NCBI GenBank assembly: GCA_964457585.1
Contig: CAYWFU010000003.1
Coordinates: 5,500 to 69,499, forward strand
DNA: 64,000 nucleotides
Direction: 5' to 3'
Source of the DNA: an uncultured bacterium
GTDB lineage: Bacteria; JACRDZ01
The translations under genes and the position numbers were made by a program. The notes under the pieces are model-generated. The model saw nothing but the letters and a program-made list of their open reading frames with translations, did not search any database and was not told the origin of the DNA. Of this stretch, positions 5,248 to 54,684 are shown piece after piece. Within the stretch, counting starts at the first letter, position 1. Every line of letters starts with the position of its first letter.

Positions 5248-5296
5248 AAAATATTATTCCAAATAAATGAAGAACCCTGTGTCAGAGCCACAGAGT

Positions 5297-5321
5297 ATCT
5301 TCTGTCTCTGATAGGAATATT
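5297..5321. repeat. Left copy of a 25-26 bp inverted repeat (ATCTTCTGTCTCTGATAGGAATATT)
   Basis: Exact reverse complement found at 6785-6809. Lies 50 bp downstream of tRNA-Ser. Confidence 0.8.
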
Positions 5322-11866: not shown

Positions 11867-12700
11867 TTAAAAATTATGAAAGCCTACTCGTAAATAGTTC
11901 AATCCTAAATATGTAAAAAATACTAAAAAAAATCCTATAATAGACAGAAAAGCTGTTTTGCGTCCGCGCCAGCCGGAAGTAATTCTAGCGTGTAAATGTA
12001 TAGCGTAAAGTATCCATATTGTTAATGCAGAAGTTTCTTTTGGTTCTGCCCAGTTCCAGAATGAACCCCATACTTGTTGTGCCCAGATCATACCAATAAT
12101 AATTGTTAAAGTTAGCAATGGGAAACCAAATGTAATCGAGCGGTAATTGACTTCATCCAATACTTCAAGCGATGGCAGACGATAATGCCAGATACTTTTA
12201 CTTTTAGATTTTATTTGTTTTTCCTGATAGAGATACATTACCCCTGTTGCAAAAGCAATTACAAAAGAAGCGTAGCTTAGAAAAGCGACAATAATGTGAA
12301 TCTCGAATAATTTACTGTCAAGGATAGGATGCAGAGGTGATATTGTTTTAGGTATTGTTAAAGCATAACCAAGACAGATGAAAGCAAGCGGTAAAACCAG
12401 TATCCCTATTATCCGCAGATTATATAAATAATTAATAATAAAAAATAAGAGTACAATACACCATACAAAAAAGGAAAGCGTTTCATATAAATTGGAAAAT
12501 GGAGAATATCCGATTGCCATACCTCTAAAGATAATTGCCAGAGTGTGTGTGGCAAACGCAAACCATGCAGTATAATTACCATATCTGGCTAATTTTTCAT
12601 ATTGATGAGATAATGCCACAATATAAAATACGAATCCTGTAAAATAACCAAGAAGAGCAATTAATATAAATATACTATTTAATAATGATAAATTACTCAT
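11867..12700 (-). CDS. Cytochrome c assembly protein of the CcsA/ResC/HemX-like family, as in hemA operons
   Basis: Polytopic membrane protein with the W-rich region (WAQQVWGSFWNWAEPKE) characteristic of the CcmC/CcsA/HemX family. Position downstream of hemA as in Firmicutes hemAXCDBL. Confidence 0.7.
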   Translation of the reverse strand: MSNLSLLNSIFILIALLGYFTGFVFYIVALSHQYEKLARYGNYTAWFAFATHTLAIIFRGMAIGYSPFSNLYETLSFFVWCIVLLFFIINYLYNLRIIGILVLPLAFICLGYALTIPKTISPLHPILDSKLFEIHIIVAFLSYASFVIAFATGVMYLYQEKQIKSKSKSIWHYRLPSLEVLDEVNYRSITFGFPLLTLTIIIGMIWAQQVWGSFWNWAEPKETSALTIWILYAIHLHARITSGWRGRKTAFLSIIGFFLVFFTYLGLNYLRVGFHNF

Positions 12701-13338
12701 GATAATCCTTTCACTTGAAGTATATTTTTAATTTTAGTTATCCATACCTGTGGATGGCTATTTCTAACAAGGTTTAATATTTTATTACTTGATATTTTTT
12801 TTATCAATTCTTCACGGTCTTTTTTATTTTTTATTTCTTTTAATATAGTCTGACGAATTTTTGAAATAAATTTAAAATATTTCTCTAAATTTTTATCGAA
12901 GTTTTTTTCTATTTCTTCTTTTATTATTTTAGCTAAACAGGGATTTAGTCCGCTTGTTGAAACAGCAATTTTTATTAAACCTTTATTAAATGCTGCCGGC
13001 ATTATAAAACTGCTATTAGTATTACCAGCAGTATTTACTAAAATATCCATTTTGCCGGCAATATTTGCAATTTGCATATTTAGTTTATTGTCATCAGTTG
13101 CGGTAATTATAAAATTAAAACTTTTTAAATCTGCCGTACGATATTTTCTTAATTTAAGTTTTATTTTTTTTTGTTTATAGATTTTTTTTATCGTAGGTGT
13201 AATAATTGGACTTATAATAGTTATATCAGCATCATATTTAAGTAAAGTTGCTATTTTTCGTTCAGCAACCTTACCCCCGCCAATTACTAAACACTTAAAT
13301 TTTTTTAAATTAATAAAAACCGGATAATATTTTACCAT
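12697..13338 (-). CDS. Precorrin-2 dehydrogenase / sirohydrochlorin ferrochelatase (siroheme synthase N-terminal domain, SirC/CysG-N type)
   Basis: Rossmann motif VIGGGKVAERKIATLL near the N-terminus. Roughly 210 aa, like stand-alone SirC/Met8-type proteins. Follows hemA-hemC in the same direction with a 4-nt overlap. Confidence 0.75.
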   Translation of the reverse strand: MVKYYPVFINLKKFKCLVIGGGKVAERKIATLLKYDADITIISPIITPTIKKIYKQKKIKLKLRKYRTADLKSFNFIITATDDNKLNMQIANIAGKMDILVNTAGNTNSSFIMPAAFNKGLIKIAVSTSGLNPCLAKIIKEEIEKNFDKNLEKYFKFISKIRQTILKEIKNKKDREELIKKISSNKILNLVRNSHPQVWITKIKNILQVKGLS

Positions 13339-13353
13339 TTTAAATACAAAATT

Positions 13354-13746
13354 TCATCTTTTAAAAGTATTATTCTCTATAAACTCTATATCTTTGATTA
13401 GAGGTTTATTAAAATATCTATTCAATTGAGTGGTTATATCTTTTCTAAATTTAATTAGCTGTTTATACCATAAGGATTCATTTATTACCATAATTAATTT
13501 CCCATTTCTAAATGATACAGGATGCGCATGATTATATAAAGTTGTTCCCATTCCTTTCCATGCTTTTTTTATTTCATCTAATAGTATTACATTGTTTAAA
13601 TCTAAATTATCTAAAATATTTTTTGTAATATTTTGTAATTTTATATTTTTTTCTATCTTCTGTCTTCTGTCTTCTGCCTTCTGCCTTCTGTCCTCTGTAC
13701 TCTGTGCTCTGTCTTCTGTGCTCTGTCTTCTGTCTTTTATTCTCAT
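13354..13746 (-). CDS. DUF721/DciA-like protein with an N-terminal extension encoded by heptanucleotide tandem repeats
   Basis: C-terminal AWKGMGTTLYNHAHPVSFRNGKLIMVINESLWYKQLIKFRKDITTQLNRY matches the DUF721 (DciA) pattern from memory. The only ATG start lies upstream of the repeat tract, giving a DRRQSTE/DRRQKAE-type 7-aa periodic N-terminus. Confidence 0.55.
   Translation of the reverse strand: MRIKDRRQSTEDRAQSTEDRRQKAEDRRQKIEKNIKLQNITKNILDNLDLNNVILLDEIKKAWKGMGTTLYNHAHPVSFRNGKLIMVINESLWYKQLIKFRKDITTQLNRYFNKPLIKDIEFIENNTFKR
13654..13737. repeat. About 12 tandem copies of a 7-bp unit (TGTCTTC and variants; complement GAAGRCA) inside the 5' coding region
   Basis: Read directly: tgtcttc tgtcttc tgccttc tgccttc tgtcctc tgtactc tgtgctc tgtcttc tgtgctc tgtcttc tgtcttt. 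Unit length is not a multiple of 3. Confidence 0.8.
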
Positions 13747-13786
13747 CTCTCAACCCTCTTGTTTAAAAAGGTAATGTCAAAAATTA

Positions 13787-13968
13787 ACCACAGAGAACAC
13801 AGAGAAACTTTTAAATATTAATGAGTTAGAAGAGTTCCCCCTCTGTGCCCTATAAATTTCCAGCTTATTTAAGCTATTTTTTAAATAGAAACAATGAAAC
13901 CTCTTGAGAACACAGAGAATTAAAAAATTATAAAAATAAACTCTGTGATCTCTGTGGTTCATTTTTTT
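13787..13968. repeat. About 180-bp element bounded by an 18/19-bp inverted repeat (AACCACAGAGAACACAGAG / CTCTGTGATCTCTGTGGTT) with extra internal CACAGAG copies
   Basis: Inverted repeats and internal ctctgtg/cacagag copies at ~13841 and ~13906 seen directly. Lies in the dciA-like promoter / bamA 3' intergenic region. Confidence 0.5.
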
Positions 13969-13974
13969 ATCCCT

Positions 13975-16386
13975 TTAAAAAAATCCCCATCCCAGGTTAA
14001 AATGGAATCTTCCTTTTTCATCTCCGGGCTCGAGGTTTAAACCCCAGCCATAATCAAGCCGTAAAGGACCAATTGGGGTTTCCAGATGGAATCCTAATCC
14101 TGCTCCGGATTTTAAGTCTTTAAGTCTGATTTCCTGAGTTCTATCCCATGCATTACCGCTATCAATAAATATCACAAAATTTATATTTTGTTCTAATGGA
14201 TAGCTATGTTCCAGATTAACATAAAATTCTCTTTTTTTACGATCAGCAATACCTCTTTCTGAATAGCCGCGTACGGTGCTTCCTCCTCCAATACTGAATT
14301 TTTCTATTGGAGGTACGTCATCTGATGGGCTATAATGATCAACCACACCTAATTGGGTGTGTATCATAAATACAAATTTTGAAAAAGTTCTTTGATACCA
14401 GAATGTATCTGAAATAACTTTATGATAATTATTATCACCATTTAAAAATCCGCCGGCTTTTTCAAATGAAAGACTATATTTTACACCTTTTGTAGGATTA
14501 AATACATTGTCTCTATTATCATAAACTAAAACAGGTGTCATACTGCGTGTAAGATTTTCACCAAGTATAACATCATGAGGTATACGCGTGTCGCCAATAG
14601 AACGATATTCCCCGTCTTCATAATTATAATATATTGAAAAACGCAGATTTTCGCTCAGGGGTCTGCCAATTCTTAAACCAATACCTTTTTTGCGGTATTC
14701 ATAAGCAGTTTGTTTTTTTATGAGTTCAACATAACCATCAGCATTCCTTTCCCCAAAGTAATCATATCCTCTTCGTGAACGTATAGTATTAAATATGTTA
14801 AAACCAAATAAAAATTTAGTATCCAGAATATAAGGATCTGTAAAACCCAATTCATAATTCTGCAGATCCTTGCCGAATTCCCATGTTACATCAACACGCT
14901 GTCCATAACCAAAAAGATTATTTTTAGCAATTTGAATTTGTCCGATAAGCCCATCTGTACCGCTGTAGGTAGCTCCAAAACTAGCCTGTCCTGTTGGTTT
15001 TTCTTTTAATCTCAATTTTAAATTAAGATTATCATCCCTATTCCCGGTTTCTGTATCAATATTTACATCTTCAAAAAAGCCAAGATTATATACACGTTCA
15101 ACACTGCGTCTGACTTTTTTGGTATTAAATATTTCACCCGGAAAAATAGTTAATTCTCTGCGTATTACTTTATCTTTAGTCACATCATTACCGTTAAATA
15201 TAATATTATTAAGATACATTTGCGTATTTTCATGGATAGTAAATAATATTGATACTGTTCTTTTTTCTTCATCAATAGTCTCATCAGGTTTTACTTGAGC
15301 ATAAATATATCCATGTTCACCATATTTAGAAGTTATGGCATTTATGCTTTCATCTATTTTTTTATAATTATATATTTCATCAGATTTAACTGACAGAACA
15401 GGAAGAATCTCCGGACTGGAAAAAATCGTATTGCCTTTTATTTTTGCTTCATAAAATGTATATTGAGAGCCTTCATAGAGTTCAATTTCAATAAGCATTC
15501 TGCCTTTCTTATCAAAATCAATAGAATGTTTTAAAACTTTAGCATTTACATATCCGCGTTCTTTATAAAAATCAATAATTTTTTTCAAATCGCCCTTGAA
15601 AATTTCTTCTTTATAATAACCATCTTCCAGAATAAAAATATATGCTTTTGTTTCCATCTGTCTTCTTAATCTAAAACCGCTAAAAGCATTATTCCCTTTA
15701 AAATTTATTTTTTTGATTACTACTTCTTTTTTAGAACCTTCATCAATAATAAAACGAATTATTATTCTGTTAAGCTGTCCATCTAATTCCTTTTCAACAT
15801 TAGCTGATACATAGAAAAATCCTTTAGTACGATAATAATCAATAATTCGATTCAATGTGGCAGTCTCTTTCCCTTCGGAATATCCGATGCCCAGAGGCAT
15901 TTTTTCGCAGGCAGACATTTTATCCAATTCTTCTTTTAATTCCTTATTGGAGATATTTTCATTCCCTATGAATTCGATATTATGCAGGACAGGATTTTCT
16001 TTTATAATAAAAATAAGAAGAATTCCTTCTTCTAAATCAGTAGTTTTAACTTGAATATCAGTAAAAAAACCAAGCTGGTATAATTTGTTAATATCTGATC
16101 GAATTGTCTGGCGGGAAACAAAGTCTCCTTTATGTATTGAAATTGTATTTAATACTATTTCCGGAGAATGATTTTGAATTCCTTCAATTTCAATTTTAAA
16201 TATTTTTTTTTCATTAATTTGTTCATTTTTGTTTGCATTTATATTTTTATCAGGATTGATCTCTTCAGTTTGAACTATTTCTAAATTAACCAATAAATAA
16301 TAAAAAAATACAAAAAGGAAAATTTTTGAGCATTGCTTTACTTGCTTTATAGAATTAAACACCGTATTTTTTGTCTCCTTGATCAT
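13975..16386 (-). CDS. bamA: Outer membrane protein assembly factor BamA
   Basis: 803 aa. N-terminal signal/TM. Multiple POTRA-like repeats. C-terminal Omp85 barrel ending …LGWGFF. Confidence 0.9.
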   Translation of the reverse strand: MIKETKNTVFNSIKQVKQCSKIFLFVFFYYLLVNLEIVQTEEINPDKNINANKNEQINEKKIFKIEIEGIQNHSPEIVLNTISIHKGDFVSRQTIRSDINKLYQLGFFTDIQVKTTDLEEGILLIFIIKENPVLHNIEFIGNENISNKELKEELDKMSACEKMPLGIGYSEGKETATLNRIIDYYRTKGFFYVSANVEKELDGQLNRIIIRFIIDEGSKKEVVIKKINFKGNNAFSGFRLRRQMETKAYIFILEDGYYKEEIFKGDLKKIIDFYKERGYVNAKVLKHSIDFDKKGRMLIEIELYEGSQYTFYEAKIKGNTIFSSPEILPVLSVKSDEIYNYKKIDESINAITSKYGEHGYIYAQVKPDETIDEEKRTVSILFTIHENTQMYLNNIIFNGNDVTKDKVIRRELTIFPGEIFNTKKVRRSVERVYNLGFFEDVNIDTETGNRDDNLNLKLRLKEKPTGQASFGATYSGTDGLIGQIQIAKNNLFGYGQRVDVTWEFGKDLQNYELGFTDPYILDTKFLFGFNIFNTIRSRRGYDYFGERNADGYVELIKKQTAYEYRKKGIGLRIGRPLSENLRFSIYYNYEDGEYRSIGDTRIPHDVILGENLTRSMTPVLVYDNRDNVFNPTKGVKYSLSFEKAGGFLNGDNNYHKVISDTFWYQRTFSKFVFMIHTQLGVVDHYSPSDDVPPIEKFSIGGGSTVRGYSERGIADRKKREFYVNLEHSYPLEQNINFVIFIDSGNAWDRTQEIRLKDLKSGAGLGFHLETPIGPLRLDYGWGLNLEPGDEKGRFHFNLGWGFF

Positions 16387-20438: not shown

Positions 20439-20447
20439 ATTATCTCC

Positions 20448-20638
20448 TTAATTAAATAGCTGTCAGCTATCAGCATTCAGCTTTCAGTTAAAAATACAAT
20501 TTCATATACCCAATATTAATTATCGCTCTTTTTTATCTTGAGTTTAATAAAAAATTATTAAGCGTTCAGTTATCAGGGATTATCTATCAGTTTATTGCTT
20601 TTTTTTAGCTGAATGCTGAAAGCTGATAGCTGAACGCT
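20448..20638. repeat. MITE/REP-like palindromic element built from NNTTCAG heptamers (arms AGCTGTCAGCTATCAGCATTCAGCTTTCAG / CTGAATGCTGAAAGCTGATAGCTGAACGCT)
   Basis: Arms at 20448-20477 and 20607-20638 are near reverse complements. There is an additional internal arm AGCGTTCAGTTATCAG at 20561-20576. Lies between mcsA and ilvE. Confidence 0.6.
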
Positions 20639-20653
20639 TGCTTAAATCATTAA

Positions 20654-21568: not shown

Positions 21569-21661
21569 AAAAAATTGCCTCCTTAATTTTGAGTAAAAGT
21601 ATATAACATTATACTAATTTTTTAATATTAAATCCAGTTTTTTTGCTTTATTAAAAAAATT

Positions 21662-21762
21662 AGGCACAAAGGCACAAAGTAGCAAAGGCACAAAGTTTAA
21701 AAGAAAACCAAAAACTCTATGCTTTGGGATTATTTTTACTTTGTGCCTTTGTTACTTTGTAA
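21662..21762. repeat. Imperfect long palindrome built from GGCACAAAG 9-mers; probable bidirectional terminator / structured element
   Basis: aggcacaaaggcacaaagtagcaaaggcacaaagt … actttgtgcctttgttactttgt. Sits between the lolD stop and the ilvE start. Confidence 0.45.
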
Positions 21763-21763
21763 C

Positions 21764-22441
21764 TTACTTTTCAATTTTCCCATCCAAAATTCTTATTATT
21801 CTATCAGTATTTTTGGCTAATGTTTCATTATGAGTTACAATAATAACTGTCTGCTTTTTTTGTCTTGCAAGATTAATTAATAATTCCTGAACTTTTTCGC
21901 TGTTTTCTCTGTCAAGATTTCCTGTTGGTTCATCTGCCAGAATAAATCTGGGTATTGTAACCATAGCTCTTGCAATAGCAACACGCTGTTGCTCTCCGCC
22001 TGAAAGCTCATTGGGTCTATGGCCCATTCTTGATTCCAATCCCAATTCTTTAAGAATTGAACTTGCTTTATCACGGGCGGTATCAAAATTTTCATGTCTG
22101 ATCAATAAAGGAATAGTCACGTTTTCAAGAGCAGTAAACTCAGGCAGTAAATAATGGAATTGAAAAATAAATCCAATATATTGATTTCTGAAATTAGATA
22201 ATTTTTTCCCGTTTTGGATATATATATTATTCTTTTCATATTTTACTTCACCTGAAGTTGGTTTGCTTAAACCTCCAATCATATGCAGAAGTGTGCTTTT
22301 CCCTGCGCCAGATGGACCAATAACGCCAATTATTTCAAATTCTTTTATTGTTAAATCAATACCTTTAATAATTTCAAGTTGATTTTCGCCGTCTTTAAAA
22401 CTTTTTTTAATATCAAATAATTCGATTAAGTTATTATTCAT
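21764..22441 (-). CDS. lolD: Lipoprotein-releasing system ATP-binding protein LolD (ABC ATPase)
   Basis: Walker [13 protein letters not shown] signature [14 protein letters not shown]. Walker [12 protein letters not shown]. Start at the internal Met MNNNLIELF, with an 8-nt overlap of the lolE stop. Confidence 0.8.
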
Positions 22442-38507: not shown

Positions 38508-38682
38508 GCGTTCAGACGTCAGTTTTCAGCTATCAGTTTTAAAGATATAAAATTCAAAAAAGCTGGTTCCCTGTTACTAATTTCCATTTTTTGGTCATAA
38601 GTTACTGGCAATTAATCACTAACTAGTAGTATTAGTTTTTATAATGATTTAGCTGAATGCTGACTGCTGATAGCTGAATGCT
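38507..38682. repeat. MITE/REP-like element of the same family as 20448-20638 (arms AGCGTTCAGACGTCAGTTTTCAGCTATCAG / AGCTGAATGCTGACTGCTGATAGCTGAATGCT), inserted between trpB and trpA
   Basis: Arms at 38507-38536 and 38651-38682 are imperfect reverse complements around a ~110-bp AT-rich core. The first arm abuts the trpB stop codon. Confidence 0.6.
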
Positions 38683-39505: not shown

Positions 39506-39599
39506 AGAGGCATAGGAGGCATATAGGGCATAGGGGGACGTTGTTTAAAATGTTTAATTTGCATTGAAGTAAACAATAAAATATGTTAGGATTCTAAAT

Positions 39600-40621: not shown

Positions 40622-43600
40622 CTATCTGCTGCTAACATGCGAAAGCCCCATCACATTCCCTGCTAAATCCTGTACTTTTGTAATTGAAAGATCTATTGGT
40701 TGAAGAAGTTTCCCGTATCTTGGAATAACAGGTGTAATATAAGTATCATTTTTTTTATTTGTTGTAGTAAAAGTCCCTTCTTCTGTCAAAAGAACATTTT
40801 CACCTTTCACATCGGATACAACAATTGATGGAATGAAATTATTATCTAAAGATTCATTAAATATTATCTTTATCTGTGCAGCAAGATTTATATCATCTTC
40901 AGGAAAAATCGATTTAACAATTACCGGTTGTGTTTTATCCAGATATACCTTAATATTTGAATTTTCTATTTTCCCATCTTTATATTTCACAGAAATATAA
41001 AGATATTTTTCACCTTGAGTACCTTTTAATGTATATCTGACTTTTTCTGAATATTTAGACCATTTACCGCTTTTATATCCGGAATCTTCACTTATTTTTA
41101 TTTCATCAGCATCCTTAATATTAAAAAGTAAAGTAATATCCTCTCTTTTAGTATAGTCACCTTCCTTAACTTTAATTTTTTTCTGACGCGGATCTTCTTC
41201 TCCTGCATAAAATAGTAGTTTACTGAAAGTATCCATTTTATTACCTGTTGGATCTATAACCTGATCCATAACAAAAATAATGGCTCCTTTCATACTTTCA
41301 TCTAAAATAATTTCAGGGGTAATATATGTATCATTTTTGTTCTTATCCGAGGCAAAAGTGCCTTCATTTGCTATTAAATAATTTAAATGACTGCTGCTCA
41401 TGAGTACTATAGCCGGTTTTTCAGACTTTACTTCCTCGCTAAAATGGATGGTAATATTAAATGGTTTATTAAATTCGACTTTAGGAGGAAAATCAAACGC
41501 AGTAATAACAGGTTTATTTCTATCGAGTGTAACTTCTACCCTTTGAGGTTTGGATATATTTTTATTTTCGTCTTCAAATTTAAAGTATATTTTTTTTACT
41601 CCATCTTCTTGTGATAAATTAAATTCAAGGTCAGATGCATAATCTTCCCATTTAGTATTTTTAAAATCTACATCTTCTGACAGCATCATTTTTAATGCTC
41701 CAACTACAGAAATTGAAAAATTGATTTTTGGATTACGTACAAAAAGCCCTTCTTTAACAGCAATTTGCGTGGCAACAGGAGCATAAGTATCGAAATTAAA
41801 GCTTTTTTTCATATCCAGTTCCATTTCATTTTTTGCAAGATCAATGGCATTTTTTACTATAATTGTGATTGCTCCGCCCATGCTTTCATCAAATATAACA
41901 GGAGGTGAAGCAAAAGTATCATTTGGGAAGCGGATTGTCATAAAGCTTCCTTCACCAGACATTTCAGGACTTTTTTCACCAGTACTTACCATGCTTATTT
42001 CAGGGAAATAAGTTGTATCAAGAGATTCGTTGAATTGGACTTTAATTTGAGAACTTTCCCCAACTTTAATTGGGCTTGGATAAAAATAATTTATTATTTT
42101 TGGCGGTATTTTGTCAATGAAAACTGTAATTTTCTGCACTTCTGAAATATAACCAATTTTATCGCGGAATTGTATATATATATCTTTTTCCCCTTCTCCG
42201 CTTGATAATTTAAATCCATGTTCTTTTTTCAAAATCTCCCATTTGGCATTTTTAAAATTTTTATCTTCACTTAAAATCATTTCAACATTTTTACGATCTT
42301 TTTGTTCGTCAAATAAAAGAATAATATCATTTTTAATTGTATAATTTCCTCCTTCAACCTTAACATGCGGTGAAGGCGGAACTATATCATATCGGAATAA
42401 ATTATTCATAGTAGTTGGATCCATTATATTACCTGCTGTATCTTTAACTTCTTCAACCAGTACAGAGATATATCCTTCAAGTTTTTCAGGTAAAATAATC
42501 GGTGAAGTTATATATGTATCATTCATTAGTGTTGTTGATGAAATATTTCCATCTGGTAAAGTTAATGTTTCTTTCGACATGTTTTTTAATGTTATTTTCG
42601 GTTTCACAGAAGTATTAATTGGTTCATTAAATAGGAGCTTTATTTTGAAAGGTTCTTTTATTTTTGGAATATTGTATATCTGGTTTATTATTCGCGGAGG
42701 AGTTTTATCCAGATTTACAGCAAATTGACTTGTTGCTGAAAGCACACCGCTTTTACTACGTGTACGAAAATAAATATTCTTTTTCCCTTCGGTGGAAGAT
42801 AGATTAATTTTTTTCTCATTAGAGAATGGTTCAAAATTTTTCCCTTGAAAATTTGGATCCTCACCAATAATCATATTATCAGCTTCAGGTGCTTTTATAA
42901 GCAAAGTAATCTCCTGATTTGAAATATAATCACCTTCCTTAACTAAAAGAGCAGTATTCAAAATAAATTTACCCACAAAAATTTTATCCATTTTATTTCC
43001 GGTCAGGTCAAGAACGTTTTCAATATAAATTTCAATTTCCCCTGTCATATTTTCATCAAGAGTAATATCAGGAGTAATATATGTATCATTTTCTGCTCTG
43101 ACAAAAGAAAATCTGCCAGGCGCAATCTCTATCTCGTTTCCCTTTTCTTTTTCTTCTTCTTTCTGCCTTTTGCCTTCTGCCTTCTGCCTTTTGTTCACCA
43201 GAGTTACCTTTGGCAATATAAAAGGATTGCATGGTTCACTGAATATAAATGAAATTTGGAAATGAGTTGTAATATTTGCAGGATTTTGATATTCAGATGT
43301 TAACAATATTGGAGGTATTGTATCTGTTACAATACTCAAATTCCTTAAGACAACGGGTGATTCCATGATTGGTGCAAGAATTAATTTTCCTAAAGCATTG
43401 TCGTCAAAGTAATCATAAACAAATTTACTGATTATTACAGTATTCAATACTCCCCACCAGTTTTTAGAAACATCCAGATTTTGGTCGAATTTTGATAATT
43501 TAAAAGCATATTCTTTATTATTTAATATATTATTATTTTTTACAAGAAACGGACTATAAAATTCTTCACAATAAATACCCGTCATGTTTTCAGTGATATT

Positions 43601-49053: not shown

Positions 49054-52000
49054 ATGAATAAAAAAAGAAACATTTTTATTGTTATTTCTATTATTTTCAT
49101 TTTATTATGTGCAACTCTTATTTTAGCTCTTCAAGGTCCTCATGGGAATCAAAAATTAGCAGATAAATTAGGAGGAGAATTTGATCCTGGTATTTTATGG
49201 GGTACATGTGCTCAGTGTCATAAAGTACATGGTGGTTTAAAAAGTGCTCGTTTATGGTATGAAGATATTTCACCTAATCCGGATAAAGCGTCATTAGTTG
49301 AAAGATTATGCCGTTTTTGCCATACAACTGATGGATTGGGAAATGAATTTACTGATATAGAAGGAACTGTGCATGAGCGAAAAGGACATATCTTTCAGAA
49401 ATCAGGCAGGTATGATAAAGATGGTAATTTAATGGAAGGTTTTGATAGCATGTATTCCTATGAATTAGTATATGATACCCCAACAGGAGGTTCTCTTGTT
49501 TCATGTTATGTATGTCACGATCCGCATGGCAGTCAATATTTTGAAACACATGAATATATTGATAGAACAGATGCAAATACAAAATATTCAACTAAATATC
49601 CAAGTCCAACCTATGATACAGCATATAGAATGAGATTAGCTGATAATTATTTTGTGACAAGAGTATGGAGAAATATTAATCCTGAAAACTCTAATTTGCA
49701 ATGGGATAAAAAATTTTTAAAAAGTAGATTAGGTCTGGGTTTTTCCGCTGTCTCAAAAACTACTTATAGAGAATTTGCATATGGCAGTACGGAATTGTAT
49801 GGAGACAGAACAGTTAATATACGTGATTTATGTTTTAATTGTCATCGTCCTGAAGGTGTTATTCAAGATCCAGCAAAAAGTGGAGCTATAAATATCTGGG
49901 GAGATACAACTGTAAGAGCTGAAGAATATAGCAAAGTTTTTTCAACTGATACTACTGAAATAGTTACCCCGCCTATAGGTGAAATTATGATTTCATCCGG
50001 GAGACAACTGGGAGATGTTTATGATACAATATTATGGTTTTATAATAAAACAACGATAGACAGTCCTGGTCCTAATGCATTTTATGATAATGCAACTCAT
50101 ACCTGTGTAACAGGTTGCCATAATCCAATAGTTGGTGAAGAAAAACCTGATGTACCTGGCAATAATGAAGCATATTATAATACTGCTTATTGGTATTCAG
50201 TATCACAAGAAGTATTAGATCAGGATGTAGCTTTAAATAAATATGAAACAGTAAATCTTGGGAAAGATGAAACAGGTATTAATAATAGATATGGAACAAC
50301 TTATCTTTATTATTCTAAGTTAGCTTGTGTTTCATGTCATAACCAGCATGGTGAGTATTTCAGGTCAAAAACAACTCATCATCCATATGATTCAACAATA
50401 CCTTTGTATATTTCTAGGACAGATGGATTTAATCAAGATAAGTCGCGTAGATTCTGTCTTGGTTGTCATGATGAACATATAAAATTTCAGGCGCCTCGTC
50501 CGGTAGGATTAGGTGTAACTGTACCGGCAATTGTCCCTGCACATTTTGATGATACAACTAGTGATGTCAGAAATGATTTATGTACATATTGCCATTCATG
50601 GGATAAGCCATTAATAATTGGTGGTTCTGTTTGCGGCAGTTGTCATGGATTTCCTCCAAATTATTTTGATGATAAAAAAAATGATAAACCTGGTGTGCAT
50701 GAGACTCATGTAATAGCGGAAGGTTATTCATGCATAACATGTCATTATAAATATCAGCATAATCAAAATAAAATAGACAAACCTGAAGATTTTCGAAATC
50801 CGGATAAACCTTTTGACTCTTCATTTATTAATGTCACACTCGATTCATCTGCTAAAATATTTTATAAAACAATAGCTGAATATGGCAAGCCATTTGATAC
50901 AGCTTATAAAATAGACAGACGATATAATAGAAGAAGAGGTACACATACATATGGATATATCATTTTTAATAATGTTGATTATCAGGACACAACTCTTAAA
51001 AAAATGAGGCCTCTTATTCCTGATACTACACTGCACTTAAATATTTATTCTACTACTTCGGTAAGGTTGACTTTCCCGTATGACTCAGCAGACCCGGTAA
51101 GAACAGAAATTAAAAAATTTTCAAGATCAGAAATGTGCTTGATGTGTCATGATAATGAAGTTGTGATTAACGGGATTCTAACAACGGGTTATAAATATCC
51201 TATTGATGGACCATATATAGAATTGCCATTAACGATTAATGAAGTTTTTCGTAAACCATTGCCAATTATAAATATTCAAAAATACTATTTTCTTGTTGGT
51301 CATGGAACAAGTTTTACATCTACTCGCAAAAAACCGCATAATCCGTTTTATAATCAATATGAAGATATATCCAGAACAGATTGTACTGATTGTCATGTTC
51401 CTCATGGTTCAGATACATTTCCATTGATTAGAGAGTGGATTAAAGATCCGCATAAACCTTATAACTCTACTGCAACATTTAATTCAACTACAGTCGCATC
51501 AGATAATAGAATTTGTTATGCATGTCATTCAGACAGATTGGATAATGGTTTTTGGCCAGGGCGGCAGAAATATGAAACTTCTATTCATTATCAATATTAT
51601 GATGATAACGATAATGCAATTTCACGTGTTTTTGATAGAGATACCTCAAAACCGTGGGTTACAGATTTTAGTCAAAATCCAAAATATGGCGATAGATATA
51701 GATGGAGATTCAGGCATGATAGTACAATGTCAAATAACGGGTCTGGTGTAAATGCCCGCGGCGGCGGACGCTGTGTTAATTGCCATAATCCGCATGGTGA
51801 TGGGTCGTCAAATATTAATAAACCAACATATGATATTATGGATAGCTCCTATAAAAATATGACAAATTATGGAGGCTCAAAATTATGTTATCGTTGTCAT
51901 GTAAATCCAGCTCAGGATAATACAGGGGTAAGCAGAGTTGCATGGAAAGATGTAAATAGTAACTGGAACGATTATAATACTACATCATGGATAGATGCTG

Positions 52001-54684
52001 ATATCCAGAGACAATTTGAATCTACAAGAGAACCAAATATCCGTTACCCCGGATATAGAGGATCACATCATGATGTTGGTGGAACCCGTTATAATAGCAC
52101 AGGAAGAAATTGGGTGCAAAGAGGTGATTGGGGTTATTTAAGATATAATAACGGTTCATATTATGAGACTGTTTTTGACTGGAGAGGCTACGATCAAATA
52201 ATTAATTTATATGATTCATCAGGTGATGACTCAAGGATAGAATGTATAAACTGTCATAATCCGCATATTGTGCAAAGGGATAATCCATATACGACTACTG
52301 CAATTGAGTCCTTAATAAATCCGGATCCAAATAATGGTGTACATCCAGATTCGGTAAATAAGGAATCCCCATATGTAGAAGAAACAAAATTTGATACTTT
52401 CTTTTTAGTAAGTGGGTTAACGCGAATTAATAAACAAAAAGTATTAAATCGTTTTTGTTTGCGATGCCATGACCATGATGCCAATTTAACAAGCCACAAA
52501 GATTTTGATTTATATTCTGAGTTAGATCCGCCAGAATGGTTATATAATTATGATTCACTGCAAATTGGTTATGAAATATGGAAGAAAAATCCAAGTATTA
52601 ATCCGGAACTTTTCAGGATGAGAAATGGAATATCCGCTGCTAATAATAAATTTTATGGTGAATTACCACGAGCAGTGGTATTTCCAAAAATAGAAAGAAA
52701 TATCTTTGTATGGGAGAAATGGGATAAATCATGGTTTTATTTCAGATCAGGACATGGAAAATTTGAAGATAATCCTGGAAATAATTATGATACTACCACT
52801 TCATGTATGGGATGTCATTATCCTCATGGAAGTTATATCCCAAAACTTTTAAGAACAGATACAACTGATACTAAAATAGTGCCGCAGGACAATGGTGCAG
52901 TTTACTGCTATAGATGTCATGAATTCCCGATAAATAATGGCTTCTGGAATGGAAAAGCAGGATGGAATGATGGTCCAAATAGAATTGCAATTCCTGAAGT
53001 TTTTGCGCAATATCAAAAAGGATTTGATAGTTCAATTCATAGTAAATATCCAAAAAGCTTTGAATCGCGTACATTCCCGAATAATAAAAATGTGAATATG
53101 TATAATTCAACATTGGGTTATGATACATCTGATGCAGGAAAATGTATTAATTGTCATGATCCTCATGGAACAGTGCGGCAGTCAGAAGGAAATGGATATT
53201 ATCAAACAATGGGATATCCAAATATGACCTATGGATATAAAGAAAATCTTTGTTATGATTGTCATGATGATAAAGCAACAAGATGGAAAAATGTAACAGG
53301 TGATGATGCAAATGGAATGGATCTAAAATCTATTTTTGGCAGTACTAATATTTCCCGTTCAAGGCATGATGTAGATACAACATCTGAAATGGGCGGAGAT
53401 AAAGCCTGGGATACAACACTGGATTATATATTAGGTGCCAATGGAGTAAATAGGGGCGATGATAGACGTATTGAATGTATCAGTTGTCATAATGTGCATG
53501 TAATAACAGGTAAATATGAAACAGGTAAAATTTATACCCCGGTTACACATCCGGAAAATCCTGCGTTATTAATTCGTGATTATGATACTGTTAATAACTG
53601 GCGGAATGGAAGAGCAATGAACACATTTTGTTTAGAATGTCATGATACAGGATGGGATACAACAGTTAATCTGTCAACAACAGTTGATAGAAGATATAAA
53701 TCACCGACTTATTTAATATTAAATAATGAATTTTTACCGCGTCCCGTTGTTTTCCCTAATTCAACAACAATCGTAGATAATAGTTACGATAATCAAGGAG
53801 ATCAACCTGCTGATCGCACAATTTGGTGGGCTGGCAACAAAAAGAGATTTTCTTTATATTATAATAAAGCGCCATATTATTACATTAATGGTCATGGGTC
53901 AGACAGTACAAGATCATATGGTGTGCCTGACGGACCAAATTTAATCCGTGTACCAATGAATGTATTATGTATTGATTGTCATGATCCTCATGCATCAACA
54001 AATATTAAACTTATCAGGGATATTGTTTTAAGATTTATTAGAAAATATAGAGTAGATACATCATTGGTTACAAATTATAAAAATAAGGTTCGGAATGAAA
54101 CAAAACTTTCAAGAGTAGACCCGCCTGGAGCAGCAGGCAGAGCAAAAGAATTATATTGCAACTGGGCATGTCATAATCCGGAATATAAGCATATTTTTAC
54201 TTATGTGCGTGATGATGACGGAAATTATTACGATTGGCCAAGCGGTGATCCTGAACAATTATTGGTTGATACAACTTCCTATCATGCGTATCGTTTAGAA
54301 ACTTATAGTGCAACAGGAAGATATATTAAAAGAGGAGATCTTGATGTTGGTTTTGCACATGGTAATGATTATTTACCAGGGCAGATCGGATATAAACAAT
54401 TTTCACCAAAATTCACTGCTGATCAATCAGATGTTGATGAAATGAAAGATACATTTAATCCAGTTACAAATACATATTTAGCCGTAGATAGCAGTAAAGT
54501 AATACCAGTAGGCGGCAGTGCGGAAGGTGATTATTATCGTCTTATGTGCTTAACATGTCATAATCCGCATGGTACAACAGATGATACAACAGATTTTAGA
54601 GAAGATAGACGCGGAATGACAGTATATGATCCAGATTCTGATGATATTAATTTATGTGCTCATTGCCATTGGAGAGCAAGATAA
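49054..54684 (+). CDS. Giant multiheme c-type cytochrome (1876 aa; about 25 CxxCH plus 2 CxxxCH sites)
   Basis: N-terminal signal/anchor MNKKRNIFIVISIIFILLCATLILA. Manual count of 25 CxxCH motifs, many in the form CxxCH(D/N)PHG, plus CVTGCH and CNWACH variants. RBS-coupled 17 nt after the NHL gene. Confidence 0.85.
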   Translation: MNKKRNIFIVISIIFILLCATLILALQGPHGNQKLADKLGGEFDPGILWGTCAQCHKVHGGLKSARLWYEDISPNPDKASLVERLCRFCHTTDGLGNEFTDIEGTVHERKGHIFQKSGRYDKDGNLMEGFDSMYSYELVYDTPTGGSLVSCYVCHDPHGSQYFETHEYIDRTDANTKYSTKYPSPTYDTAYRMRLADNYFVTRVWRNINPENSNLQWDKKFLKSRLGLGFSAVSKTTYREFAYGSTELYGDRTVNIRDLCFNCHRPEGVIQDPAKSGAINIWGDTTVRAEEYSKVFSTDTTEIVTPPIGEIMISSGRQLGDVYDTILWFYNKTTIDSPGPNAFYDNATHTCVTGCHNPIVGEEKPDVPGNNEAYYNTAYWYSVSQEVLDQDVALNKYETVNLGKDETGINNRYGTTYLYYSKLACVSCHNQHGEYFRSKTTHHPYDSTIPLYISRTDGFNQDKSRRFCLGCHDEHIKFQAPRPVGLGVTVPAIVPAHFDDTTSDVRNDLCTYCHSWDKPLIIGGSVCGSCHGFPPNYFDDKKNDKPGVHETHVIAEGYSCITCHYKYQHNQNKIDKPEDFRNPDKPFDSSFINVTLDSSAKIFYKTIAEYGKPFDTAYKIDRRYNRRRGTHTYGYIIFNNVDYQDTTLKKMRPLIPDTTLHLNIYSTTSVRLTFPYDSADPVRTEIKKFSRSEMCLMCHDNEVVINGILTTGYKYPIDGPYIELPLTINEVFRKPLPIINIQKYYFLVGHGTSFTSTRKKPHNPFYNQYEDISRTDCTDCHVPHGSDTFPLIREWIKDPHKPYNSTATFNSTTVASDNRICYACHSDRLDNGFWPGRQKYETSIHYQYYDDNDNAISRVFDRDTSKPWVTDFSQNPKYGDRYRWRFRHDSTMSNNGSGVNARGGGRCVNCHNPHGDGSSNINKPTYDIMDSSYKNMTNYGGSKLCYRCHVNPAQDNTGVSRVAWKDVNSNWNDYNTTSWIDADIQRQFESTREPNIRYPGYRGSHHDVGGTRYNSTGRNWVQRGDWGYLRYNNGSYYETVFDWRGYDQIINLYDSSGDDSRIECINCHNPHIVQRDNPYTTTAIESLINPDPNNGVHPDSVNKESPYVEETKFDTFFLVSGLTRINKQKVLNRFCLRCHDHDANLTSHKDFDLYSELDPPEWLYNYDSLQIGYEIWKKNPSINPELFRMRNGISAANNKFYGELPRAVVFPKIERNIFVWEKWDKSWFYFRSGHGKFEDNPGNNYDTTTSCMGCHYPHGSYIPKLLRTDTTDTKIVPQDNGAVYCYRCHEFPINNGFWNGKAGWNDGPNRIAIPEVFAQYQKGFDSSIHSKYPKSFESRTFPNNKNVNMYNSTLGYDTSDAGKCINCHDPHGTVRQSEGNGYYQTMGYPNMTYGYKENLCYDCHDDKATRWKNVTGDDANGMDLKSIFGSTNISRSRHDVDTTSEMGGDKAWDTTLDYILGANGVNRGDDRRIECISCHNVHVITGKYETGKIYTPVTHPENPALLIRDYDTVNNWRNGRAMNTFCLECHDTGWDTTVNLSTTVDRRYKSPTYLILNNEFLPRPVVFPNSTTIVDNSYDNQGDQPADRTIWWAGNKKRFSLYYNKAPYYYINGHGSDSTRSYGVPDGPNLIRVPMNVLCIDCHDPHASTNIKLIRDIVLRFIRKYRVDTSLVTNYKNKVRNETKLSRVDPPGAAGRAKELYCNWACHNPEYKHIFTYVRDDDGNYYDWPSGDPEQLLVDTTSYHAYRLETYSATGRYIKRGDLDVGFAHGNDYLPGQIGYKQFSPKFTADQSDVDEMKDTFNPVTNTYLAVDSSKVIPVGGSAEGDYYRLMCLTCHNPHGTTDDTTDFREDRRGMTVYDPDSDDINLCAHCHWRAR

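What the first reader, a model, noticed from the sequence alone, without database searches (positions are those of the whole stretch)
13654..13737. Twelve tandem 7-bp repeats form the 5' coding end of a DciA-like gene
Seen: TGTCTTC-type heptamers (complement GAAGRCA) begin 7 nt after the only available ATG and encode a DRRQSTE/DRRQKAE periodic N-terminal extension fused to a DUF721 (DciA-like) domain. Unit slippage would switch the frame, so this is a second candidate contingency tract, here in a gene normally considered a housekeeping helicase-loader. The same heptamer family recurs in the giant surface-protein gene and resembles the ends of the 26-bp inverted repeat near the tRNA (…CTTCTGTCTCTG…). 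Inference: a genome-specific slippage-prone SSR family, or the remnants of a mobile element's ends.
Basis: partly seen in the sequence, partly recalled or inferred. Interest (0 to 1): 0.6.

Follow-up and report, generated by a model that had tools for sequence, protein, structure and literature searches.

The report
Repeat DNA rebuilt a dciA start
A 12-unit, 7-bp repeat really does form the first 28 codons after the start of a DciA (helicase-loader) gene, but it looks like a worn repeat array that arrived with a neighbouring palindromic mobile-like element and now encodes a charged helical tail, not like an on/off switch; the neighbouring element belongs to a large family found in very different bacteria that I could not find described.

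Summary
There are 12.3 units of a 7-bp repeat at 13651-13736. They lie inside the only ORF that reaches a bona fide DciA/DUF721 domain, behind an ATG with a good Shine-Dalgarno sequence.

The contingency-locus reading is not supported. The array is degenerate, with at most 3 perfect units in a row. The gene class is wrong for phase variation. No population data exist.

In the nearest relative, bamA and dciA are 14 bp apart and the protein has no extension. Here about 300 extra bases lie between them: a 188-bp palindromic element with CACAGAG arms, a new SD and ATG, and the tract. A likely ancestral RBS and ATG remain stranded next to bamA.

The tract is read as four DRRQ[KS][TAI]E heptads in rare codons. 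AlphaFold2 predicts these as one long basic helix in front of a confident KH-like DciA fold.

The upstream element is the real surprise. Its two arms, with a 120-150 nt gap, match at least 120 metagenome contigs of 29-70% GC. Each arm typically has three CACAGAG units at 9-bp spacing. Interiors and neighbouring genes are unrelated. One sub-family shows 5-bp target duplications. The element has no Rfam match, and I found no description in the papers searched.

Seven-bp arrays of this unit are no commoner than control heptamers.

The parts
13651..13736 (-). Degenerate heptanucleotide array, 12 units of NACAGAR. It is read as codons 5-32 of dciA, four DRRQ[KS][TAI]E heptads.
   Evidence: TRF. Units and frame. 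GC is 48% against 21% for the rest of the gene. Codon adaptiveness is 0.51 against 0.78 for the rest of the gene. At most 3 perfect units in a row.
13354..13746 (-). dciA-like gene, 130 aa. It has a 36-aa N-terminal extension followed by a DUF721/DciA domain (residues 37-122).
   Evidence: ORF. Pfam PF05258, E 6.7e-10. PDB profile hit 7ykm, E 2.4e-14. AF2 pLDDT 89.4, with helix 7-32 and a domain pLDDT of 96-98. Foldseek top hits are DciA structures.
13744..13759 (-). Present ribosome-binding site (AGAGGG, 13759-13754) and start codon (ATG, 13746-13744).
   Evidence: Sequence. The spacing and motif match those of other genes in the window.
13779..13966 (.). Palindromic MITE-like element. The outer arms are CCACAGAGATCACAGAG (13957-13941, - strand) and CTCTGTGTTCTCTGTGG (13804-13788, - strand). 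An inner inverted CTCTGTG/CACAGAG pair lies at 13917-13911 and 13847-13841.
   Evidence: Inverted repeat I1, 41-nt arms, 78% complementary. Six of the window's 8 CACAGAG sites lie in the element and a seventh in the tract. RNA fold -64 kcal/mol, z -5.1. The arm pattern is found in at least 120 metagenome contigs.
13960..13974 (-). Probable ancestral dciA RBS and start: AGGGATAAAAAA followed by ATG (13962-13960), directly after the bamA stop. It is now cut off from the gene and heads a 61-aa ORF (13777-13962) that runs through the element.
   Evidence: Alignment with the relative's junction, TAA-AGGATAGAAATTAA-ATG. ORF list.
13975..16386 (-). bamA (Omp85 with five POTRA domains), the upstream neighbour. 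The same gene order is seen in the nearest relative.
   Evidence: Pfam. Locus L008 has BamA followed by DciA with a 14-bp gap.
43153..43193 (-). Second, short array of the same unit type (GGCAGAA/GCAGAAG, about 5 units), in frame inside a 1602-aa beta-helix protein. It encodes KRQKAEGKRQKEEE.
   Evidence: TRF. Sequence. Translation. Pfam.
5277..5320 (+). Small hairpin just after tRNA-Ser. Its arms combine CCACAGAG and CTTCTGTCTCTG, the element's unit and the tract's unit.
   Evidence: Sequence. tRNA.

Best explanation
The tract is a worn short-tandem-repeat array. It is part of a block of about 300 bp of repetitive DNA that came to lie between bamA and the conserved body of dciA. The block consists of a CACAGAG-armed palindromic, MITE-like element (13779-13966), a short spacer carrying a new Shine-Dalgarno sequence and ATG, and the 84-bp array.

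The block separated the gene from its original ribosome-binding site and start codon, which still sit next to the bamA stop. Translation now starts at ATG 13746 and reads through the array in the one frame that joins the DciA domain. Twelve units of 7 bp make 84 bp, or 28 codons.

The product is a DciA protein with a basic, highly charged N-terminal helix of about 26 residues (pI 10.5) in front of an otherwise ordinary KH-like DUF721 fold. This turns a 'domain-only' (Group 4) DciA into a Group 1 architecture.

What is shown: the anatomy, the family assignment, the absence of the block in the nearest relative, the rare-codon and high-GC make-up of the tract, and the degeneracy of the array. What is inferred: that the ATG at 13746 is used, that the tail is tolerated or mildly useful (for example for ssDNA or DnaB contacts, as in other DciA extensions), and that the array is not a working switch.
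For: - Anatomy of the tract and ORF.
- DciA membership: Pfam, PDB profile hit 7ykm at 2.4e-14, AF2 model with pLDDT 89.4, and Foldseek top hits 7ykm, 8a3v VcDciA and DnaA domain I.
- Extension is unusual in the family. Of 55 homologues, most start 5-10 residues before helix 1. The closest (P0005, 53% identity, 106 aa) has no extension.
- Nearest relative's locus. In L008 bamA and dciA are 14 bp apart. The junction alignment shows about 300 nt extra in the window and a conserved TAA-AGG(G)ATA...ATG motif next to bamA.
- Start site. AGAGGG lies 8 nt upstream of ATG 13746, as at other genes here. There is no alternative canonical start.
- The tract looks like DNA-level repeat rather than selected coding sequence. 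GC is 48% against 21%. Codon adaptiveness is 0.51 against 0.78 for the rest of the gene and 0.63-0.76 for reference ORFs. Of about 10 unit substitutions I counted in the sequence, 8 are non-synonymous.
- The array is degenerate.
- Kinship with the element. The element and the tract share CACAGAG units. The element family is real and widespread and transposon-like in one sub-family, with 5-bp target duplications.
- N-terminal extensions are a known, variable and sometimes functional feature of DciA (bioRxiv 10.1101/2022.01.24.477630; PMC12547741).
Against: - No expression, proteomic or read-level data exist for this uncultured organism. Use of ATG 13746 is therefore inferred.
- Only one relative, at 53% identity, is available. 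The order of events (element insertion, new start, array expansion) cannot be reconstructed.
- An in-situ origin of the array is equally possible. It could have grown from an ancestral CAGAAACCAGATAAAAAAAT-like stretch.
- The link between the tract and the element's arms rests on a shared heptamer. By my own rough estimate, a random heptamer array would lie within 2 mismatches of CACAGAG in some register roughly 10-20% of the time.
- No target-site duplication is visible around the window's own element.
- AF2's confident helix for residues 7-32 has no homologous sequences behind it in the alignment.
Confidence: 0.55

Rival explanations
1. Contingency (phase-variable) locus. Slipped-strand mispairing changes the number of 7-bp units and switches DciA translation on and off, or in steps of three units changes the tail length.
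For: The unit length is not a multiple of 3 and the tract lies just after the start. Adding or removing 1 or 2 units gives 28-48-aa truncated products. The present count of 12 is a multiple of 3. Heptameric SSRs are known to phase-vary, for example the H. influenzae hmw 5'-UTR with 11-63 units (PMC12721329).
Against: The array has only 84% matches, at most 3 perfect units in a row (21 nt), and a 33-nt stretch of 14-bp periodicity. Working contingency tracts are long and uninterrupted (established knowledge; hmw has at least 11 identical units). The gene is a replication helicase-loader homologue, not a surface or restriction-modification gene. No second copy is seen in the window. No polymorphism data exist: the protein is a singleton cluster and the Logan contig stops at 13598.
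Confidence: 0.1
2. RNA-level control element. The tract acts as a third 'arm' that pairs with the element's right arm (13804-13788). This loops out and occludes the SD and ATG, in competition with the left-arm:right-arm hairpin. It would be a translational gate or RNase III target, analogous to the hmw heptamer hairpin.
For: Without the left arm, the fold pairs CUCUGUGUUCUCUGUG with the 5' half of the tract and encloses the SD and ATG (-31.1 kcal/mol, z -2.6). The 337-nt fold chooses the same pairing. The alternative left:right hairpin folds at -64 kcal/mol, z -5.1. A small hairpin, CCUUUUU/AAGAGGG, covers the SD in all folds. Precedent: PMC12721329.
Against: The complementarity follows automatically from the shared motif. 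No covariation can be tested, because there are no relatives carrying the tract. The z-scores are modest. None of the 120 related loci has a comparable 7-bp third arm.
Confidence: 0.15
3. Non-coding leader. Translation starts downstream of the tract at a non-canonical codon (ATA or ATT near residues 35-44), so the repeats are 5'-UTR or promoter sequence. This would resemble the TAACTGA heptamer repeats found just upstream of start codons in Beggiatoaceae.
For: Homologues start about where residues 25-40 lie. ATT at residue 40 aligns with the second Met of P0005. A weak promoter-like match (AAGACA-17-TAAAAT, 9/12) lies in the last units. Precedent for heptamer repeats before starts: PMC4679880.
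Against: There is no ATG, GTG or TTG before Met66, and Met66 would delete a third of the domain. No SD precedes the ATA or ATT codons. A proper SD and ATG sit just upstream of the tract. The unit count keeps the frame.
Confidence: 0.08
4. Assembly artefact or decaying pseudogene. The repeat block is mis-assembled, or dciA is no longer functional.
For: The source is a MAG-like singleton. The only independent contig ends 53 bp before the tract.
Against: The tract is 84 bp with distinguishable units and is shorter than a read, so it is easy to assemble. The DciA domain is intact, keeps the family's conserved W63, L84 and W93, and folds confidently. The independent contig is 99.9% identical over 1342 bp.
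Confidence: 0.05

Closest known systems
DciA proteins with N-terminal extensions (Group 1 of Blaine et al., bioRxiv 10.1101/2022.01.24.477630; Caulobacter and mycobacterial DciA)
   Same: A DUF721/KH-like domain preceded by at least 14 residues of unannotated, charged or disordered or helical sequence. [quoted passage not shown]
   Different: Here the extension is built from a heptanucleotide DNA repeat, uses rare codons, is absent from the closest homologue, and has no sequence relatives. Its function is untested.
Tandem repeats that create new disordered or repetitive protein regions (Borg aaTRs, PMC9879509)
   Same: DNA tandem repeats inside ORFs are translated into periodic, hydrophilic peptide repeats added to otherwise conserved proteins.
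   Different: Per that paper's abstract, Borg repeats in ORFs are under strong selection and give perfect amino-acid repeats. This one has a 7-bp unit, so it needs sets of three units to stay in frame. It is degenerate and sits at the very start of a bacterial housekeeping gene.
Heptameric SSR phase variation (H. influenzae hmw 5'-UTR ATCTTTC repeats, PMC12721329)
   Same: A 7-bp unit lies at the 5' end of a gene, and the repeat RNA can form one arm of a long hairpin.
   Different: The hmw tract is non-coding, perfect, 11-63 units long and demonstrably variable. This tract is coding, interrupted and of unknown variability.
Heptamer direct repeats shared by distant lineages (TAACTGA repeats in Beggiatoaceae, Cyanobacteria and Bacteroidetes, PMC4679880; cyanobacterial STRR sequences, from my own knowledge)
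   Same: Short heptamer units are repeated in tandem, mostly in intergenic DNA, with a scattered phylogenetic distribution and no known mechanism.
   Different: The unit differs. The CACAGAG units are mostly spaced at 8-9 bp, come in sets of about three, and are arranged as inverted arms around a variable core.
MITEs and REPIN-like palindromic intergenic elements
   Same: They are small (about 150-230 bp), non-coding, have inverted-repeat ends, fill intergenic gaps in any gene orientation, and occur in many copies. One sub-family has 5-bp target-site duplications.
   Different: Interiors fall into 72 unrelated clusters among 120 copies, while a 7-mer repeated three times per arm is kept identical across 29-70% GC hosts. 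The outer ends differ between sub-families. No autonomous partner was found.

Membership tests
DciA / DUF721 (PF05258) | Sequence match to the family profile above the curated threshold | tested here: met
   Pfam score of 39.5 bits against a cut-off of 24, E 6.7e-10, residues 37-122 covering profile positions 2-89 of 89. A profile of 49 homologues hits PDB 7ykm 'DciA DUF721 domain' at E 2.4e-14.
DciA / DUF721 (PF05258) | KH-like fold resembling DnaA domain I | tested here: met
   AF2 domain pLDDT is 96-98. Foldseek top hits are 7ykm (TM 0.76 on the target, rmsd 2.3), 8a3v VcDciA, 4tps DnaA domain I and RbfA.
DciA / DUF721 (PF05258) | Acts as a DnaB helicase loader in a genome lacking DnaC/DnaI | not testable with these tools
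   Only 64 kb of the genome is available, and there is no biochemistry.
Contingency locus (SSR-mediated phase variation) | Long uninterrupted run of identical units | tested here: not met
   The array has 84% matches. The longest perfect 7-bp periodic stretch is 21 nt, or 3 units.
Contingency locus (SSR-mediated phase variation) | Unit-number change alters the reading frame or expression | tested here: met
   Adding or removing 1 or 2 units gives 28-48-aa products. Adding or removing 3 keeps the frame.
Contingency locus (SSR-mediated phase variation) | Copy-number polymorphism within or between populations | not testable with these tools
   The protein is a singleton. The Logan contig from SRR12113406 ends at 13598. 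Look-ups of ORFs spanning the tract found nothing.
MITE (miniature inverted-repeat transposable element) | Terminal inverted repeats, small size, no coding capacity | tested here: met
   The arms are 41 nt and 78% complementary, and the element is 188 bp. The same architecture is seen in 120 loci.
MITE (miniature inverted-repeat transposable element) | Target-site duplication | tested here: inconclusive
   Exact 5-bp duplications (ATTAA, ATCAA, TTTAA, TTCAA) flank the CCTAAAAA...TTTTTAGG sub-family. None is seen around the window's copy or in other sub-families, whose flanks are themselves inverted repeats.
MITE (miniature inverted-repeat transposable element) | Many dispersed copies in unrelated contexts | tested here: met
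The 214 flanking ORFs fall into 170 clusters. Several copies occur per contig in L010, L028, L051, L099, L101 and L116.
MITE (miniature inverted-repeat transposable element) | Related autonomous element encoding a transposase with the same ends | tested here: inconclusive
   Ten sampled ORFs from five loci are housekeeping or have no Pfam hit, and no recurrent neighbour was found. Only about 7 kb of flank per locus was available, and no systematic transposase search was made.
Intrinsic terminator | Short GC-rich hairpin followed by a U run | tested here: not met
   The consensus scan finds 0 terminator-like sites in 13300-14100. The element's hairpin is far larger than a terminator stem, although UUAAUUUUU follows it.
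Any Rfam RNA family | Covariance-model match | tested here: not met
   There is no credible hit at E <= 1 in 13300-14100. Only tRNAs reach gathering score in the window plus 7 element-rich loci.

The most novel reading that the evidence does not exclude
The CACAGAG-armed palindromes may be a previously undescribed, cross-phylum class of mobile or regulatory intergenic module. Hosts include a Firestonebacteria/JACRDZ01-like genome, environmental Chlamydiae and unknown 60-70% GC bacteria. Each arm would carry three heptamer sites at 9-bp spacing, read by an unknown conserved factor. In this genome a derived third array would have been captured as the 5' end of the helicase-loader gene, so that repeat DNA both supplies a new protein tail and, by pairing with the element's arm, gates dciA expression.
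Probability: 0.12. Interest if true: 0.75.

Novelty: new variant of a known kind. Interest (0 to 1): 0.5.

Why it matters
For the gene, this is a clear natural example of repeat DNA cutting a housekeeping replication gene off from its start and then being used as a new start and N-terminal tail. It turns a minimal, domain-only DciA into an extended one. That bears on the open question of what DciA extensions do and how they arise.

For genome biology, the neighbouring element exposes a large family of intergenic palindromes. A 7-mer, repeated three times per arm, stays identical across hosts of 29-70% GC while everything else differs. That pattern implies a conserved recognising factor or an efficient horizontal spread. 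Either would be worth identifying.

The finding also warns annotators that heptamer arrays without stop codons inflate or fuse ORFs, as in the IDO-like gene of L009.

Tried and rejected
- **Source genome and closer relatives.** The BamA scan of 185,579 species genomes found only hits of 25-29% identity. Exact look-ups of the DciA protein failed. The full HMMER scan of 1.84 billion proteins gave a single close homologue, and searching with that homologue found nothing more. The evolutionary steps therefore cannot be ordered.
- **Copy-number variation.** The one Logan contig ends before the tract. Look-ups of two ORFs that span the repeat block found nothing.
- **A special cross-genome family of 7-bp [GC]ACAGA[AG] arrays.** This idea came from P0002/L009, which carries a 26-unit array. 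I rejected it because control heptamers of the same composition are as frequent or more frequent in viral contigs: 27 against 34 and 109. In addition, none of the 120 element loci carries such an array.
- **DnaA boxes.** The outer TTA[AG]CCACA resembles TTATCCACA. I dropped this because the nearly invariant T at position 4 of the box is a purine here and the inner units do not fit. This is reasoned from memory of the consensus.
- **CRISPR-like arrays in L116 and L031.** Rejected because the 'spacers' vary in length, are A-rich and similar to one another, and the array is mirrored.
- **Intrinsic terminator.** The scan was negative.
- **Known RNA family.** None matched.
- **Phage origin of the element.** There were 0 hits in 2.9 million viral contigs.
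- **Literature search by sequence strings.** The only hit was a PCR primer in a B. fragilis paper.
- **A sigma-70 promoter for dciA between the element and the ATG.** TTGACA at 13780-13775 has no matching -10 hexamer.
Full report
**1. The observation**

Tandem Repeats Finder gives 13651-13736, period 7, 12.3 copies, 84% matches and score 102. On the minus strand the units are GACAGAA GACAGAG CACAGAA GACAGAG CACAGAG TACAGAG GACAGAA GGCAGAA GGCAGAA GACAGAA GACAGAA GATAGAA. A two-unit probe with up to 2 mismatches hits ten times inside the tract, against 0.65 hits expected in the whole window.

The tract lies inside ORF 13354-13746(-), 130 aa. The ORF begins ATG AGA ATA AAA and then runs straight into the repeat, giving MRIK-DRRQSTE-DRAQSTE-DRRQKAE-DRRQKIE-KNIK....

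Pfam DciA (PF05258) matches residues 37-122 over the full profile, with E 6.7e-10 and 39.5 bits against a cut-off of 24. There is no ATG, GTG or TTG in frame between the tract and Met66, and Met66 lies well inside the domain. AGAGGG sits 8 nt upstream of the ATG. This is the same kind of Shine-Dalgarno sequence and spacing seen before many other genes in the window.

Simulated gain or loss of 1 or 2 units gives truncated products of 28-48 aa. Gain or loss of 3 units keeps the frame.

- A short GGCAGAA-type array at 43153-43193 is read in the same frame (KRQKAEGKRQKEEE) inside a 1602-aa beta-helix protein.
- The hairpin after tRNA-Ser pairs CCACAGAG with CTTCTGTCTCTG.

**2. The protein**

A full HMMER scan of 1.84 billion representative proteins with the domain part found 55 homologues. 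Only one is close: P0005, 53% identity, 106 aa, labelled by NCBI as coming from a 'Candidatus Firestonebacteria' MAG. Its WGS prefix, JACRDZ01, also names a GTDB placeholder phylum. That phylum has three genomes of 30.6-49% GC from black-smoker and groundwater samples (PMC11382960). This fits the window's 32% GC.

In an alignment of 49 family members, most start 5-10 residues before the first helix. The window's protein has about 26 extra residues.

AlphaFold2 with that alignment gives mean pLDDT 89.4, and the domain scores 96-98. Residues 7-32, which are the repeat-encoded part, form one long helix with pLDDT of about 88. Foldseek against the PDB puts D. radiodurans DciA DUF721 (7ykm) first. 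It is followed by V. cholerae DciA bound to DnaB (8a3v), DnaA domain I and RbfA. The family profile hits 7ykm at E 2.4e-14. DciA membership is therefore met by both sequence and fold.

The extension is basic, with pI 10.5, 13 K/R and 8 D/E. In the scheme of Blaine et al., extensions of at least 14 aa define the groups. The window's protein is Group 1 and its nearest homologue is Group 4, the domain-only class. [quoted passage not shown]

**3. The surroundings**

In the relative's locus (L008), bamA is followed by dciA after only 14 bp: TAA-AGGATAGAAATTAA-ATG. In the window the gene order is the same, but 228 bp of spacer plus the 84-bp tract intervene.

A junction alignment shows that homology runs through the bamA end into TAA-AGGGATAAAAAA-ATG (ATG at 13962-13960). 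It then breaks and resumes only near 13640, in ...GATTTAAAC...GATGAAATAAAAAAAGCATGG. The stranded ATG heads a 61-aa ORF (13777-13962) that simply reads through the spacer. I read this ATG as the ancestral RBS and start, now cut off from the gene. The A-rich context makes this likely rather than certain.

The spacer is not ordinary DNA. Seven of the window's eight CACAGAG heptamers lie between 13700 and 13956, where 2.4 would be expected for the whole window. They form an inverted repeat with 41-nt arms, 13779-13819 and 13926-13966. The outer arms are CCACAGAGATCACAGAG and CTCTGTGTTCTCTGTGG, and an inner inverted pair lies between them. As RNA the region folds at -64 kcal/mol, z -5.1. Rfam has nothing for it.

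**4. The element family**

I searched the metagenome collection for the two arms separated by 120-150 nt. That pattern has 34 specified bases, so by my own order-of-magnitude estimate well under one chance hit would be expected.

- **Hosts.** The contigs range from 29% to 70% GC.
- **Interiors.** They are unrelated between loci, falling into 72 clusters among 120.
- **Context.** The elements fill intergenic gaps in all gene orientations: 66 co-directional, 17 convergent, 12 divergent. The 214 flanking ORFs fall into 170 clusters with no recurrent neighbour. Ten sampled ORFs from five of the loci are housekeeping-type or have no Pfam hit.
- **Arm structure.** The third unit of each arm was not fixed by my search pattern. 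It is exactly CACAGAG in 135 of 240 arms and within one mismatch in 172 of 240, in low-GC and high-GC contigs alike. A fourth unit is rare. A typical arm is therefore three CACAGAG units at 9-bp spacing, sometimes 8-bp.
- **Spacer dinucleotides.** They match between the two arms only somewhat more often than chance: 88 of 120 against 60 expected, and 39 of 120 against 21 expected. The 7-mer itself, rather than mere hairpin complementarity, is what is conserved.
- **Flanks.** Sequences outside the arms are often inverted repeats too, and they define sub-families.
- **Transposition signature.** In one sub-family the element has discrete ends, CCTAAAAA...TTTTTAGG. These are flanked by exact 5-bp direct duplications: ATTAA, ATCAA, TTTAA and TTCAA. 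This is the signature of transposition.
- **Extreme cases.** Two AT-rich contigs (L116 and L031) carry about ten forward modules, a centre, and a comparable series of reverse modules. In L116 most intergenic gaps I examined hold such modules.
- **One identified host lineage.** A flanking UvrD gene of one 42% GC locus has its best named relatives in Parachlamydiaceae, Waddliaceae and Protochlamydia, at 59-69% identity. At least that group is therefore environmental Chlamydiae, far from the window's lineage.
- **Not viral, not in the literature searched.** No viral contig has the pattern. A full-text search for the arm sequences found only an unrelated PCR primer.

**5. How the tract relates to the element**

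The tract uses the same core (NACAGAR, including exact CACAGAG and GACAGAG units) in the same orientation as the element's bamA-proximal arm. It lies 40 bp beyond the other arm.

Its make-up is that of repeat DNA rather than of this genome's coding sequence:
- GC is 48%, against 21% for the rest of the gene and 32% for the window.
- Codon adaptiveness is 0.51, against 0.78 for the rest of the gene and 0.63-0.76 for reference ORFs. The tract contains four GAC, two AAG, one AGG and one GAG codon.
- Of the roughly ten substitutions between units, I count eight as non-synonymous in the sequence.

Two cautions apply. First, a 26-unit array of the same units in an unrelated 57% GC contig (L009, fused to an IDO-like ORF) suggested a cross-genome 7-bp family. 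Control scans say otherwise. Four or more units of [GC]ACAGA[AG] occur in 27 viral contigs, against 34 and 109 for two composition-matched scrambled heptamers. None of the 120 element loci has such an array.

Second, the last units (CAGAAGATAGAAAAAAAT) resemble the relative's codons 7-13 (CAGAAACCAGATAAAAAAAT). The array may therefore have grown in place from a proto-repeat rather than being imported.

I conclude that the tract and the element are probably kin, given the shared motif, their adjacency, and the tRNA-proximal hairpin that pairs the two unit types. This is inference, not proof.

The genome also has other intergenic 'inverted tandem array' elements:
- Arms of 7-bp NGCTGAW units at 20439-20653 and 38508-38677.
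- Arms of 8-bp AGGCACAA units around 21650-21770.
- A similar GGCACA[AG]AG element in the relative.

Building palindromes from short tandem units is therefore a habit of this lineage.

**6. Mechanism**

Best explanation (0.55): repeat DNA invaded the bamA-dciA junction and stranded the original RBS and start. The gene now initiates at ATG 13746 and reads through a 12-unit array that happens to be, or was selected to be, in frame. This adds a basic helical tail to a domain-only DciA. The tail is tolerated and possibly useful, by analogy with other DciA extensions.

The switch idea is weak (0.10). The longest perfect run is three units, whereas the well-studied heptameric switch in H. influenzae hmw has 11-63 identical units (PMC12721329). 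The gene class is also wrong, and no variation data exist.

An RNA-gate variant deserves mention (0.15). The element's right arm can pair with the 5' half of the tract and loop out the SD and ATG. This gives -31.1 kcal/mol, z -2.6, and the same pairing appears in the 337-nt fold. It competes with the left:right hairpin. However, this complementarity follows automatically from the shared motif and cannot be tested by covariation.

A downstream non-canonical start (0.08) and an artefact or pseudogene (0.05) are unlikely, for the reasons given under the rival explanations.

**7. Comparison with what is known, and novelty**

The gene is a member of DciA/DUF721. The tract works like other translated tandem repeats that add hydrophilic, periodic segments to proteins (Borg aaTRs, PMC9879509). 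It fails the key test for a contingency locus.

The element behaves like a MITE or REPIN: it is small, palindromic, intergenic and multi-copy, and it shows target duplications in one sub-family. It differs from them in keeping only a thrice-repeated 7-mer constant across very different hosts while its ends and interiors vary.

The nearest conceptual precedents are the heptamer repeats shared by distant lineages, namely TAACTGA (PMC4679880) and cyanobacterial STRR (from my own knowledge). Their mechanism is also unknown.

I rate the whole as a new variant of a known kind, with interest 0.5. The original 'contingency' claim is largely deflated. The start replacement and the widespread CACAGAG family are worth following up.

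**8. Limits**

- There are no reads, no expression data and only one distant relative.
- Host taxonomy is known for one locus group only.
- No autonomous element was found, but only a few kilobases around each copy were available.

Noticed in passing
L010-L129 (metagenome loci); window 13779-13966: There is a large family of intergenic palindromes. Their arms are typically three CACAGAG units at 9-bp (sometimes 8-bp) spacing. Contig GC ranges from 29% to 70%, interiors and neighbouring genes are unrelated, one sub-family has 5-bp target duplications, there is no Rfam match, and I found no description in the papers searched.
   Followed up: partly
L116 940-2020, 4390-4920, 6080-6280, 7380-7860; L031 1-1323: Two AT-rich contigs carry series of about 10 forward modules (AACCACAGAG(NNCACAGAG)n plus a 30-40 nt A-rich spacer), then a centre, then a comparable series of reverse modules. 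These form giant palindromes, and most intergenic gaps examined in L116 contain such modules. Some modules are tandemly duplicated. Nested insertion and duplication were not resolved.
   Followed up: partly
window 20439-20653 and 38508-38677: Two intergenic elements have the same architecture but a different unit. Their arms are tandem 7-bp units of NGCTGAW (TCAGCTA TCAGCAT TCAGCTT ... AGCTGAA TGCTGAA AGCTGAT AGCTGAA), in inverted orientation around a core of about 120 bp.
   Followed up: no
window 21650-21770; L008 3790-3945: Inverted arrays of 8-bp AGGCACAA/AGTAGCAA units flank a short core. The relative's contig has a similar GGCACA[AG]AG palindrome between convergent genes.
   Followed up: no
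window 39507-39534: Three tandem 9-bp units (GAGGCATAG-like) lie directly after the stop of the gene ending at 39505, with no inverted partner noticed.
   Followed up: no
window 13777-13962 (-): A 61-aa ORF starts at what looks like the ancestral dciA start codon and reads through the palindromic element. It ends at a TGA 30 nt before the present dciA ATG. Termination followed by reinitiation coupling is conceivable.
   Followed up: partly
L009 2981-3162: A 26-unit GACAGAG/GACAGAA/CACAGAG heptamer array in a 57% GC contig is fused by gene callers to the 3' end of a fragmented IDO-like gene (P0002). This shows how heptamer arrays without stop codons extend ORFs.
   Followed up: partly
window 49054-54684 and 54958-58749 (+): Two adjacent giant multihaem cytochromes (1876 and 1263 aa) have MtrC/MtrF-like and paired-CXXCH domains. 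This suggests extracellular electron transfer in this little-known lineage.
   Followed up: no
window 12257-13598 vs L007 (Logan, SRR12113406): A public sequencing run contains a 99.9% identical strain. Its contig ends 53 bp before the heptamer tract, with one mismatch near the contig end.
   Followed up: partly
window 13761-13770 with 13753-13760: A small hairpin (CCUUUUU ... AAGAGGG) pairs the dciA Shine-Dalgarno sequence in every predicted fold of the leader.
   Followed up: no
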